Sequence record: OM337876.1
Source: Klebsiella phage KP182
Length of the DNA: 64,000 nt
Reading direction: 5' to 3' (one strand)
This document shows positions 38,616 to 39,074 of the stretch, piece after piece (positions within the stretch are counted from its first letter, which is position 1; every line of letters begins with the position of its first letter). Position numbers and translations under genes: made by a program. The notes under the pieces were generated by a model. That model made no database searches. It saw nothing but the letters and a program-made list of their open reading frames with translations, and had not been told where the DNA came from.

Positions 38616-39074
38616 CTATTTCAAATCTTCTGACCAGTCCAGTTTTAGCGGCTCTTGGTACTCTCTATCAAGCACTACTGGTACTTGAACTTCACCCTCG
38701 AAGTGAGCTGGACCTACATTGTAGCTGAGAGTAATGTGCGGTGAGTAATCTGGGAAATCATGAGTTGCTCCCAAAGCTCTTGCATATTGGTGACGGAATT
38801 TTAAGTATTCTGAATCTAGCTTAAGAACTAGCGTACGTCCGTCTTGTGTGTCCCATACTTCAAGTTTACCTGACGTAGCAACTTCAAAACTTCCTGAAGC
38901 ACAAACGTATGGAACATGAACTCTTGAATAGCATATCGTCGTATGAATTTTATGACGAGGAACTGGATTAGGGACCTTCAACTCACGCTGAAGGTCCTCA
39001 ATAGCATCAAGAGTTTTCTCAGAGAATTTAGCAGCTACATATAAGCCAGTGCTAAAATCGCTGAATTTCATCAC
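38616..39074 (-). CDS. acb1: 2H phosphoesterase, T4 gp57B/Acb1-like (anti-CBASS cyclic-oligonucleotide nuclease)
   Basis: 152-aa ORF with two H-x-T/S-x motifs (HTTICY, HITLSY). It has the same length and map position as T4 57B, upstream of 57A. Confidence 0.7.

What the first reader, a model, noticed from the sequence alone, without database searches (positions are those of the whole stretch)
38616..39074. Anti-defence gene set: Acb1 (57B), macro domain, NADAR domain and an Acb2-sized ORF
Four genes are involved. The first, 38616..39074, is a 2H phosphoesterase with two HxT/S motifs at the T4 57B position; T4 57B is Acb1, which cleaves CBASS/Pycsar cyclic nucleotides. The second, 32366..32842, is a NADAR domain; this family reverses DarT-type guanine ADP-ribosylation of DNA. 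The third, 21632..22099, is a macro-like domain, an ADP-ribose binder or hydrolase often used against ADP-ribosylating defences. The fourth, 23892..24173, is a 93-aa ORF in the vs.x region where T4 encodes Vs.4/Acb2; it matches Acb2 on size and position only. The first three rest on motifs visible in the translation. The window therefore appears to carry a multi-pronged counter-defence repertoire spread across hypervariable early regions.
Basis: partly seen in the sequence, partly recalled or inferred. Interest (0 to 1): 0.65.

Follow-up and report, generated by a model that had tools for sequence, protein, structure and literature searches.

The report
T4-type counter-defence genes, Klebsiella phage
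The four flagged genes are real and are this Klebsiella T4-like phage's copies of four known phage T4 counter-defence genes (Acb1, Acb2, AdfN, AdfM), so the reading is right but the finding is ordinary.

Summary
The window comes from a T4-like Klebsiella phage (Jiaodavirus). It is 99.5% identical to a deposited genome.

All four ORFs exist on the minus strand, and each is a homologue of a phage T4 gene with published counter-defence evidence:
- **38616..39074** is Acb1 (T4 57B). It is 80% identical to T4 57B, and all nine functional residues are kept.
- **23892..24173** is a true Acb2 (T4 Vs.4) by sequence, not only by size and position. It keeps the cyclic-dinucleotide-binding Tyr and Lys.
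- **32366..32815** is AdfN (T4 gp30.3), a NADAR enzyme that removes ADP-ribose from guanine and counters DarTG1. It keeps the catalytic Glu and Lys, the phage-type His and the C-terminal helix. The real start is probably the ATG at 32815, not the TTG at 32842.
- **21632..22099** is the syntenic homologue of T4 Tk.4. A 2025 preprint named Tk.4 AdfM and reported that T4 needs it to resist DarTG2. The fold is a TARG1/DarG-class macro domain, with Gln where DarG has its catalytic Lys; the thymine-ADP-ribose hydrolase SCO6735 has the same substitution.

Two corrections apply: Acb1 does not degrade Pycsar signals, and the macro protein's likely target is DarTG2, not Thoeris.

Each gene occurs in more than 1,200 deposited phage genomes. 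Verdict: already known, low interest.

The parts
38616..39074 (-). acb1 (T4 57B orthologue): a 2H-phosphoesterase that cleaves CBASS cyclic di- and trinucleotides. It is 152 aa from the GTG, or 151 aa from the ATG at 39071.
   Evidence: Pfam PF23474 Acb1 scores E=1.9e-61, 206.5 bits against a cut-off of 27. PDB 7t26 Acb1 scores E=1.4e-63. It is 80% identical to T4 57B without gaps. Y12, H44, T46, W74, F107, H113, T115, E141 and W147 are all present (their roles are given in PMC9117128). The gene order 57B-57A-1-3-2-4 matches T4.
23892..24173 (-). acb2 (T4 vs.4 orthologue): a cyclic-dinucleotide sponge of 93 aa.
   Evidence: Pfam PF24729 Acb2_Tad1_hairpin scores E=6.3e-16. PDB 7uq2 Vs.4 scores E=1.5e-28. 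It is 64% identical to T4 Vs.4. Y9 and K24, 15 residues apart, correspond to PaMx33 Y11 and K26, the cyclic-dinucleotide site. It lies between regB and the GrcA-like vs.6, as in T4.
32366..32815 (-). adfN (T4 30.3 homologue): a NADAR-fold DNA ADP-ribosylglycohydrolase of 149 aa.
   Evidence: Pfam PF08010 Phage_30_3 scores E=5.6e-56. It is 41% identical to T4 gp30.3 over 149 aa. E33 and K40 correspond to T4 AdfN E36 and K43. The phage-type His H118 is invariant in the family alignment. In the AlphaFold model the only real PDB matches are the three NADAR structures 2b3w, 8bat and 8bau.
21632..22099 (-). Macro-domain gene (T4 tk.4 / adfM orthologue), 155 aa. Predicted to hydrolyse thymine-linked ADP-ribose on DNA and so counter DarTG2.
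   Evidence: It is 47% identical to T4 Tk.4, has the same length, and sits between tk and vs as in T4. The AlphaFold model has pLDDT 88.9. Foldseek TM-scores are 0.74-0.81 to Poa1p, TARG1, BT1257 and DarG. The family profile hits TARG1 at 4e-16, SCO6735 at 4.4e-16 and M. tuberculosis DarG at 1.2e-13. N26 corresponds to DarG N22. Q85 sits at the position of DarG K80 and TARG1 K84.

Best explanation
The window is part of the early-gene region of a T4-like Klebsiella phage (genus Jiaodavirus). It carries the same four small counter-defence genes that have been characterised in phage T4.

1. **Acb1** is a metal-independent 2H phosphoesterase. It closes a C-terminal lid over 3'3'-cGAMP, cUA or cAAA and cuts 3' of adenosine using an HxT/HxT tetrad. 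This destroys the CBASS second messenger before the effector is triggered.
2. **Acb2** is a small helical-hairpin protein that assembles into a hexamer and sequesters cyclic dinucleotides between a Tyr and a Lys of paired protomers. Neither residue of the separate cyclic-trinucleotide pocket is conserved, so like T4 Acb2 it is predicted to bind dinucleotides only. Acb1 and Acb2 together give two layers of anti-CBASS protection.
3. **AdfN** is a gp30.3-type NADAR enzyme that removes ADP-ribose placed on guanine in phage DNA by DarT1, which restores replication.
4. **The Tk.4/AdfM-type macro protein** most likely removes ADP-ribose placed on thymine in single-stranded DNA by DarT2. It would use a Gln-dependent water-activating mechanism like that of Streptomyces SCO6735, not the Lys of DarG.

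What is shown here: homology, conserved functional residues, predicted folds and synteny. What is inferred from the T4 and other prototypes: every biochemical activity and every defence-system target.
For: **Identity of the phage.** A 4-kb stretch around acb1 (window 37000-41000) is 99.5% identical to Klebsiella phage AShe-2020a and 98.9% to KpV477, a Jiaodavirus.

**Acb1.**
- Pfam E=1.9e-61, PDB 7t26 E=1.4e-63, 80% identity to T4 57B.
- All nine residues named in PMC9117128 are present.

**Acb2.**
- Pfam E=6.3e-16, PDB 7uq2 E=1.5e-28, 64% identity to T4 Vs.4.
- Y9 and K24 are conserved.
- The positions of T4 D61 and T68 (PaMx33 R67 and T74) are T66 and Q73 here.

**AdfN.**
- Pfam Phage_30_3 E=5.6e-56 and 41% identity to T4 gp30.3.
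- E33, K40 and H118 are invariant in 37 homologues.
- The C-terminal helix is intact (residues 132-147 of the model). Its loss inactivates the RB69 allele.
- The Foldseek top three hits are the three NADAR structures; everything else has TM below 0.2.
- T4 AdfN activity and DarTG1 rescue are published (PMC11825919, PMC11125620).

**Macro.**
- Syntenic 47% homologue of T4 Tk.4.
- Confident macro fold.
- Deleting T4 tk.4 sensitises the phage to DarTG2.
- Q85 aligns with TARG1 K84 and DarG K80.
- SCO6735 has a catalytic Q85 at that same position and hydrolyses thymine-ADP-ribose (PMC9967889).
Against: - No activity of these Klebsiella-phage proteins has been measured.
- AdfN here is only 41% identical to the tested T4 protein. 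T4 AdfN worked only in the context of T-even infection, so target range could differ.
- The anti-DarTG2 role of Tk.4 rests on one preprint with genetic evidence only. Hydrolysis by a Tk.4-type protein has not been shown.
- The best structural match of the macro model is yeast Poa1p, an ADP-ribose-1''-phosphate phosphatase, with which it shares an H-x-C-N-C motif.
- The equivalence of the window's Q85 to SCO6735 Q85 is transitive, through TARG1 K84 and DarG K80. I did not align SCO6735 directly.
- The single-sequence Pfam Macro score only just reaches its cut-off.
- The NADAR model has a disordered N-terminus, and its TM-scores are modest at 0.49-0.58.
Confidence: 0.85

Rival explanations
1. 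The macro protein is a metabolic Poa1p-type ADP-ribose-1''-phosphate phosphatase that clears a by-product of tRNA or RNA repair. It would not be a DNA de-ADP-ribosylase or a counter-defence factor.
For: The top Foldseek hit is Poa1p (6lfr, TM 0.81). The best single-sequence PDB hit is Poa1p. The protein shares an H23-x-C-N-C motif with Poa1p, where H23 is a site chosen for mutation in the deposited structures (PDB titles). T4 and RefSeq annotate the gene as a phosphatase with an A1pp motif. The window is rich in tRNA genes and also encodes an RlaP-like RNA-repair nucleotidyltransferase.
Against: Knocking out T4 tk.4 specifically sensitises T4 to DarTG2. The family profile scores as well or better against TARG1, SCO6735 and BT1257. 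The Gln at the catalytic position matches SCO6735, which hydrolyses thymine-ADP-ribose. The position of Poa1p F152 is Ala here.
Confidence: 0.12
2. The NADAR protein acts on soluble ADP-ribose derivatives or on riboflavin-pathway intermediates, as E. coli YbiA does. It would not act on ADP-ribosylated phage DNA.
For: The best structural match is YbiA (2b3w). A 2022 comparative survey suggested that viral NADARs prefer soluble ADP-ribose derivatives (PMC9503650). The gene has moved away from the replication and ligase neighbourhood into the tRNA cluster.
Against: T4 gp30.3, of the same Pfam family, de-ADP-ribosylates guanine in DNA in vitro and rescues phage from DarTG1. E33, K40 and the gp30.3-specific H118 are all conserved.
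Confidence: 0.08
3. The 38616..39074 protein is an RNA ligase or RNA-repair 2H enzyme, as RefSeq and PHROGs label it, and not an anti-CBASS nuclease.
For: RefSeq calls the KpV477 and T4 orthologues 'RNA ligase'. PHROG 755 is labelled 'RNA ligase'. There is a weak Pfam hit to the 2'-5' RNA ligase superfamily (E=0.01, below its cut-off).
Against: T4 57B was identified by activity-guided fractionation as the cGAMP-degrading enzyme, and deleting it sensitises T4 to CBASS (PMC9117128). The window protein is 80% identical and keeps every catalytic and base-stacking residue. The 'RNA ligase' label is an older fold-based name.
Confidence: 0.03

Closest known systems
Phage T4 Acb1 (gene 57B; structure of the Erwinia phage FBB1 homologue, PDB 7t26)
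   Same: Same Pfam family, same 152-aa length, 80% identity to T4, identical HxT/HxT tetrad, identical aromatic stacking residues, E141 and the C-terminal lid Trp. It has the same position upstream of 57A-1-3-2-4.
   Different: About 20% of residues differ, none of them at a described functional site. The start codon at the T4-equivalent position is GTG, followed immediately by ATG.
Phage T4 Acb2 (Vs.4; PDB 7uq2)
   Same: Same Pfam hairpin domain and 64% identity. The N-terminal stretch (about residues 1-38) and the C-terminal stretch (about 75-93) are nearly identical. The cyclic-dinucleotide Tyr and Lys are conserved. It has the same neighbourhood, between regB and the vs.6/GrcA-like gene.
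   Different: The central segment (about residues 39-74) is divergent and 5 aa longer. vs.3 and vs.5 are absent, so acb2 abuts the GrcA-like gene. The trinucleotide-pocket positions are T66 and Q73, against D61 and T68 in T4 and R67 and T74 in PaMx33.
Phage T4 AdfN (gp30.3), a gp30.3-type NADAR
   Same: Same Pfam family (Phage_30_3), same NADAR fold, and the same catalytic Glu, Lys and phage-type His. The C-terminal helix is full length. There is one copy per genome.
   Different: Identity to T4 is only 41%; it is closer (58-88%) to homologues in Cronobacter, Citrobacter, Aeromonas, Vibrio and Rhizobium phages. It lies inside the tRNA cluster, translationally coupled to an uncharacterised 185-aa ORF, and is not next to DNA ligase gene 30.
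Phage T4 Tk.4 (named AdfM in bioRxiv 10.1101/2025.11.20.689424)
   Same: Same length, 47% identity, and the same position between tk and vs. It has the same H-G-C-N-C and NLYTQ motifs and the same Gly-rich loops.
   Different: T4 has three small genes (tk.1 to tk.3) between tk and tk.4. This phage has one small ORF there. An extra 130-aa ORF with a hydrophobic N-terminus (22108..22500) lies between the macro gene and vs.
DarG2 antitoxin macro domain, human TARG1, Streptomyces SCO6735, and PhiKZ AdfM (ALC1-like macro class)
   Same: Same macro fold (TM 0.74-0.82) with profile E-values of 1e-11 to 4e-16. The Asn equivalent to DarG N22 is conserved. The Gln at the catalytic position matches SCO6735 Q85.
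   Different: The catalytic Lys of DarG (K80), TARG1 (K84) and PhiKZ AdfM (K78) is Gln here, and TARG1 D125 is Ala. There is no DarT-binding second domain.

Membership tests
Acb1 (anti-CBASS 2H phosphoesterase, Pfam PF23474) | Significant match to the family profile above the curated cut-off, and to a solved Acb1 | tested here: met
   206.5 bits against a cut-off of 27, E=1.9e-61. PDB 7t26 E=1.4e-63. 80% identity to T4 57B.
Acb1 (anti-CBASS 2H phosphoesterase, Pfam PF23474) | HxT/HxT catalytic tetrad (H44, T46, H113, T115) | tested here: met
   H44, T46, H113 and T115 are all present at identical numbering. The tetrad is defined in PMC9117128.
Acb1 (anti-CBASS 2H phosphoesterase, Pfam PF23474) | Base-stacking aromatics Y12, W74, F107, W147, the adenine-reading E141, and the C-terminal lid | tested here: met
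   All five residues are present, and the protein runs to residue 152.
Acb1 (anti-CBASS 2H phosphoesterase, Pfam PF23474) | Cleavage of 3'3'-cGAMP, cUA or cAAA, and rescue from CBASS | not testable with these tools
   This needs enzyme assays and plaque assays.
Acb2 (cyclic-oligonucleotide sponge, Pfam PF24729) | Significant match to the Acb2/Tad1 hairpin profile and to the solved T4 Vs.4 | tested here: met
   58.8 bits against a cut-off of 27, E=6.3e-16. PDB 7uq2 E=1.5e-28. 64% identity to T4 Vs.4.
Acb2 (cyclic-oligonucleotide sponge, Pfam PF24729) | Cyclic-dinucleotide pocket Tyr and Lys (PaMx33 Y11 and K26) | tested here: met
   Y9 and K24 have the same 15-residue spacing and the same KGY...NAIKD context as T4.
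Acb2 (cyclic-oligonucleotide sponge, Pfam PF24729) | Cyclic-trinucleotide pocket (PaMx33 R67 and T74). This sets specificity and does not define the family; T4 Acb2 also lacks a working site. | tested here: not met
   The aligned positions are T66 and Q73 (with residue roles). Dinucleotide-only binding is therefore predicted.
Acb2 (cyclic-oligonucleotide sponge, Pfam PF24729) | Hexamer formation and nucleotide sequestration | not tested
   I made no multimer model and ran no binding assay.
NADAR superfamily, gp30.3/AdfN subfamily (Pfam PF08010) | Significant match to the Phage_30_3 profile, and homology to T4 gp30.3 | tested here: met
   188.6 bits against a cut-off of 36, E=5.6e-56. BLASTP to T4 gp30.3 gives E=1e-34 and 41% identity.
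NADAR superfamily, gp30.3/AdfN subfamily (Pfam PF08010) | YbiA/NADAR fold | tested here: met
   The AlphaFold model has pLDDT 78. The only Foldseek PDB hits with TM above 0.2 are YbiA 2b3w (probability 1.00, TMq 0.58), G. lovleyi NADAR 8bat (0.54) and PnNADAR 8bau (0.49). Sequence-only profile searches of the PDB found nothing.
NADAR superfamily, gp30.3/AdfN subfamily (Pfam PF08010) | Catalytic Glu and Lys (T4 AdfN E36 and K43) | tested here: met
   E33 and K40 in 149-aa numbering align to T4 E36 and K43 and are invariant in 37 homologues.
NADAR superfamily, gp30.3/AdfN subfamily (Pfam PF08010) | His in the last strand, which distinguishes phage gp30.3 NADARs from the YbiA type (Glu) and the BC4488/DarG1 type (Asp) | tested here: met
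   H118 in THSMG aligns with the T4 His in KHSIA and is invariant in the family. The feature is described in PMC11125620.
NADAR superfamily, gp30.3/AdfN subfamily (Pfam PF08010) | Intact C-terminal helix (its loss inactivates the RB69 allele) | tested here: met
   The alignment runs to the end of T4 gp30.3. The model has a helix at 132-147. The RB69 truncation is described.
NADAR superfamily, gp30.3/AdfN subfamily (Pfam PF08010) | Removal of guanine-linked ADP-ribose from DNA, and rescue from DarTG1 | not testable with these tools
   This needs a dot-blot or gel assay and plaque assays.
Macro domain, Tk.4/AdfM type within the ALC1-like (TARG1/DarG) class | Macro fold with Gly-rich phosphate-binding loops | tested here: met
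   The model has pLDDT 88.9. TM is 0.74-0.82 to Poa1p, TARG1, BT1257 and DarG. G32, G34, G121 and G123 are invariant. The single-sequence Pfam Macro score is 22.2 bits against a cut-off of 22.
Macro domain, Tk.4/AdfM type within the ALC1-like (TARG1/DarG) class | Orthology to T4 Tk.4 (sequence and position) | tested here: met
   47% identity, E=6e-47, both proteins 155 aa. Both genes lie between tk and vs.
Macro domain, Tk.4/AdfM type within the ALC1-like (TARG1/DarG) class | Active-site Asn (Thermus aquaticus DarG N22, PhiKZ AdfM N23) | tested here: met
   N26 aligns with DarG N22 and is invariant in the family.
Macro domain, Tk.4/AdfM type within the ALC1-like (TARG1/DarG) class | Catalytic Lys of DarG (K80), TARG1 (K84) and PhiKZ AdfM (K78) | tested here: not met
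   The family-invariant Q85 occupies this column in both the HMM alignment to TARG1 and the MAFFT alignment with both DarG proteins. T4 Tk.4 also has Gln. SCO6735 has a catalytic Q85 at the equivalent position and still hydrolyses thymine-ADP-ribose (PMC9967889). I therefore file this protein as a Tk.4/SCO6735-like variant, not as a DarG-type enzyme.
Macro domain, Tk.4/AdfM type within the ALC1-like (TARG1/DarG) class | Removal of thymine-linked ADP-ribose from ssDNA, and rescue from DarTG2 | not testable with these tools
   Only genetic evidence exists, for T4 tk.4. No enzymology exists for any Tk.4-type protein.

The most novel reading that the evidence does not exclude
This phage's two ADP-ribose erasers may not work exactly like their prototypes.

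- The Tk.4-type macro protein has Gln, not the DarG/TARG1 Lys, and a Poa1p-like H-x-C-N-C motif. It could use a different catalytic route or have a different substrate.
- The adfN gene has moved into the tRNA cluster, where it is translationally coupled to an uncharacterised 185-aa ORF (32815..33372, PHROG 2290, no Pfam match, unrelated to T4 30.2).
- That ORF could be the unidentified phage factor that T4 AdfN needs in order to work. T4 AdfN neutralises DarT1 only during T-even infection.
Probability: 0.08. Interest if true: 0.45.

Novelty: already known. Interest (0 to 1): 0.18.

Why it matters
Practically, this phage type, which is used against Klebsiella, is predicted to resist CBASS, DarTG1 and DarTG2, which bears on host range.

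It also exposes stale database labels. RefSeq still calls Acb1 'RNA ligase', the macro protein 'phosphatase', and Acb2 and AdfN 'hypothetical'. Two GenBank records call the NADAR gene 'anti-CBASS protein acb1'.

Scientifically it adds little. The four families, their mechanisms and their presence in T4-like phages are already published. Each gene occurs in more than 1,200 deposited phage genomes, including 100%-identical copies.

Tried and rejected
- **Sequence-only PDB searches for the NADAR protein.** Neither the single sequence nor a 37-sequence profile found a NADAR structure. Only the fold comparison linked it to one.
- **Module transfer with 30.2.** I tested whether the ORF upstream of adfN is T4 30.2, which would mean the two genes moved together. 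There is no similarity and no Pfam family.
- **DarG-type membership for the macro protein.** Rejected on the catalytic Lys. The Gln is explained by the SCO6735 precedent.
- **Further anti-defence genes.** I scanned about 70 other early-region ORFs against Pfam. Only the PinA Lon inhibitor turned up, with no Tad1/Tad2 or other anti-defence family. PHROGs on ten neighbouring ORFs gave only families of unknown function.
- **Promoters and terminators.** The scans were no better than shuffled sequence, so nothing can be said about transcription units.
- **Mosaic acb2 allele.** I checked whether acb2 is a sharply mosaic allele inside an otherwise identical genome. The flanks are about 93-96% identical to phage Roth68, so the divergence is not exceptional.
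- **Poa1p literature.** No paper on the Poa1p catalytic mechanism was found in the library.
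Full report
**What the window is.** A 4-kb stretch around the first flagged gene is 99.5% identical to Klebsiella phage AShe-2020a and 98.9% to Klebsiella phage vB_KpnM_KpV477 (Straboviridae, Tevenvirinae, Jiaodavirus). The gene order follows phage T4: tk, tk.4, vs, vs.1, regB, vs.4, vs.6 ... 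e, nudE ... tRNAs ... 57B, 57A, 1, 3, 2, 4, 53, 5.

**Observation.** All four ORFs are present at the stated coordinates on the minus strand. Their matches are far beyond chance: Pfam Acb1 E=1.9e-61, Phage_30_3 E=5.6e-56 and Acb2_Tad1_hairpin E=6.3e-16. Pfam Macro scores E=1.4e-4, which just reaches its cut-off. One coordinate needs refining. The NADAR ORF listed from a TTG at 32842 most likely starts at the ATG at 32815, giving 149 aa. That start matches the homologues' lengths and the KpV477 annotation. It overlaps the upstream stop codon by one base (TAATG) and follows an AAGGA ribosome-binding site.

**Gene 1, 38616..39074: Acb1.** The protein is 80% identical to T4 57B over all 152 residues without gaps. 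It matches the solved Acb1 of Erwinia phage FBB1 (7t26) at E=1.4e-63. Hobbs et al. [quoted passage not shown] They defined an HxT/HxT tetrad (H44, T46, H113, T115), four stacking aromatics (Y12, W74, F107, W147), the adenine-reading E141, and a C-terminal lid at 145-152. All nine residues are present at identical numbering here. The same paper shows that Pycsar signals are degraded by a different enzyme, Apyc1, and uses Acb1 as the negative control.

**Gene 4, 23892..24173: Acb2.** Pfam Acb2/Tad1 hairpin scores E=6.3e-16, the solved T4 Vs.4 (7uq2) scores E=1.5e-28, and identity to T4 Vs.4 is 64%.
- The two residues essential for cyclic-dinucleotide binding in PaMx33 Acb2, Y11 and K26, correspond to Y9 and K24 here, with the same 15-residue spacing.
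- The separate cyclic-trinucleotide pocket (PaMx33 R67 and T74; T4 D61 and T68, and T4 does not bind cA3) is T66 and Q73 here. I therefore predict a dinucleotide-only sponge. This is an inference.
- The ends of the protein are nearly invariant among alleles. The central segment, about residues 39-74, varies.

**Gene 2, 32366..32815: AdfN, a gp30.3-type NADAR.** The protein belongs to Pfam Phage_30_3 and is 41% identical to T4 gp30.3.
- Johannesman et al. (PMC11825919) renamed gp30.3 as AdfN. They showed it is a NADAR DNA ADP-ribosylglycohydrolase that lets T-even phages replicate on DarTG1 hosts, with E36 and K43 as key residues. The RB69 allele, which lacks the last 15 residues, is inactive.
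- A second study showed activity of T4 gp30.3 on guanine-ADP-ribose in vitro. It also noted that phage gp30.3 NADARs carry a His where YbiA-type enzymes have Glu and DarG1-type enzymes have Asp (PMC11125620).
- Here E33, K40 and H118 align to those residues and are invariant in 37 homologues. The C-terminal helix is intact.
- Sequence searches of the PDB found nothing. An AlphaFold model (pLDDT 78) matched only the three NADAR structures: YbiA 2b3w, G. lovleyi 8bat and P. nicotianae 8bau, with TMq 0.49-0.58. All other hits had TM below 0.2.
- The gene has moved. In T4 it lies by DNA ligase gene 30, and in Citrobacter phage Margaery it lies 1.1 kb from the ligase gene. Here it sits inside the tRNA cluster, between tRNA-Met and tRNA-Leu/Arg. 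It lies downstream of an uncharacterised 185-aa ORF that is unrelated to T4 30.2.
- There is one copy per phage record.

**Gene 3, 21632..22099: Tk.4/AdfM-type macro domain.** The protein has the same length as T4 Tk.4, is 47% identical to it, and lies in the same place between tk and vs.
- *Fold and class.* The model is confident (pLDDT 88.9). It superposes on Poa1p, TARG1, BT1257 and both DarG macro domains with TM 0.74-0.82. A 45-sequence family profile hits BT1257 (5e-20), TARG1 (4e-16), SCO6735 (4.4e-16), Poa1p (2e-15), and M. tuberculosis and T. aquaticus DarG (1e-13 and 1e-11). This places it in the ALC1-like (TARG1/DarG) class.
- *Published role of the T4 gene.* A 2025 preprint reports that tk.4 was the single T4 gene depleted on a DarTG2 host and that a clean knockout sensitises T4 to DarTG2. 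The authors named it adfM and considered hydrolysis 'likely'. A separate paper gave the same name to a different, Lys-containing macro protein of PhiKZ, for which hydrolysis was shown.
- *Active-site residues.* N26 corresponds to DarG N22 and is invariant. The catalytic Lys of TARG1 (K84) and DarG (K80) is an invariant Gln (Q85), in T4 Tk.4 as well, and TARG1 D125 is Ala.
- *What the Gln means.* It is not a loss of function. Streptomyces SCO6735, a functional DarG homologue that hydrolyses thymine-ADP-ribose, has a catalytic Q85 at the position of DarG K80 and TARG1 K84, and mutating it abolishes activity (PMC9967889). The link between the window's Q85 and SCO6735 Q85 is transitive; I did not align them directly.
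- *Rival.* A Poa1p-like phosphatase role remains possible, at about 0.12.

**Repertoire and commonness.** I scanned about 70 further early-region ORFs against Pfam. The only other host-antagonist family found was the PinA Lon inhibitor at 6667..7119. tblastn against 50,697 phage records finds Acb1 in 1,481 records, Acb2 in 1,231, AdfN in 1,509 and the macro protein in 2,781. Each has 100%-identical copies in deposited Klebsiella phages. The set is the standard T4-like complement, not a special feature of this window.

**Verdict.** Everything here is a homologue of an already characterised T4 counter-defence gene, in a phage that is essentially already in GenBank: already known, low interest. 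The biochemical activities and defence targets are inferred from the prototypes and have not been shown for these proteins. The small open points are the Gln-type mechanism of Tk.4-class macro proteins and the relocated adfN with its unknown coupled partner ORF.

Noticed in passing
window 32056..33517: The adfN homologue lies inside the tRNA cluster. The order on the minus strand is: a terminator-like hairpin (33517..33502), tRNA-Met (33396..33472), an uncharacterised 185-aa ORF (32815..33372; PHROG 2290, no Pfam match, unrelated to T4 30.2), adfN (32366..32815, with a TAATG start/stop overlap), then tRNA-Leu and tRNA-Arg. In T4 and Citrobacter phage Margaery the gene lies next to DNA ligase gene 30. 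T4 AdfN is reported to need an unknown phage factor, so the coupled ORF may be worth testing.
   Followed up: partly
window 31545..37560: Fifteen tRNA genes lie at 32056..37560 (T4 has eight in its cluster). They are interleaved with homing-endonuclease-like ORFs: 35552..36220 (NUMOD3 plus a SegE-type GIY-YIG domain) and 36986..37459 (NUMOD3). A further ORF at 31545..32036 belongs only to PHROG 16521 of unknown function, so calling it endonuclease-like is my guess. Such elements could explain gene shuffling in this region.
   Followed up: partly
window 24173..24535: A 120-aa ORF carries the glycyl-radical motif (Pfam Gly_radical, E=4.8e-18) and is the Vs.6/GrcA-like autonomous glycyl-radical cofactor. 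It directly abuts acb2; the T4 genes vs.3 and vs.5 are missing here. The anaerobic reductase NrdD candidate (4021..5859, identified by size and position only) and an NrdG-like radical-SAM activase (3374..3844) are also in the window.
   Followed up: partly
window 6667..7119: PinA, the T4 inhibitor of the host Lon protease (Pfam Inhibitor_I24, E=8.8e-50).
   Followed up: no
window 13762..16590: An RlaP-like RNA-repair-pathway nucleotidyltransferase (15580..16590, E=1e-14) lies close to a 325-aa ORF with weak P-loop/AAA similarity (13762..14739). Their function in the phage is unknown.
   Followed up: no
window 27861..28313: A Nudix hydrolase at the position of T4 NudE. The T4 annotation describes NudE as active on ADP-ribose, so it could dispose of the ADP-ribose released by AdfN and the macro protein. 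This is speculation.
   Followed up: no
Public records: PQ657790, PQ657791 (Roth16, Roth17); NC_031087; NC_000866: Database labels are wrong or out of date. Two GenBank records call the NADAR gene 'anti-CBASS protein acb1'. RefSeq calls Acb1 'RNA ligase' and the macro protein 'phosphatase', and leaves Acb2 and AdfN as 'hypothetical protein'.
   Followed up: yes
window 23892..24173 compared with L006:2501-2776, L007:1498-1776 and L003:6079-6345: Acb2 alleles share nearly identical N- and C-terminal stretches but differ strongly, with indels, in the central segment at about residues 39-74. The window allele is closest outside Klebsiella phages to that of Escherichia phage Bp7 (83.5%). Another Jiaodavirus, Roth68, has a 72% allele. 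Flanking DNA is about 93-96% identical, so this is only moderately unusual.
   Followed up: partly
window 22108..23362: Three consecutive ORFs have hydrophobic, signal-peptide-like N-termini and lie between the macro gene and regB. The first is a 130-aa ORF with no counterpart at this position in the T4 annotation (22108..22500, PHROG 4957). The second is the Vs homologue (22497..22817). The third is the Vs.1 homologue, which has weak similarity to the SLT transglycosylase domain (22817..23362).
   Followed up: no
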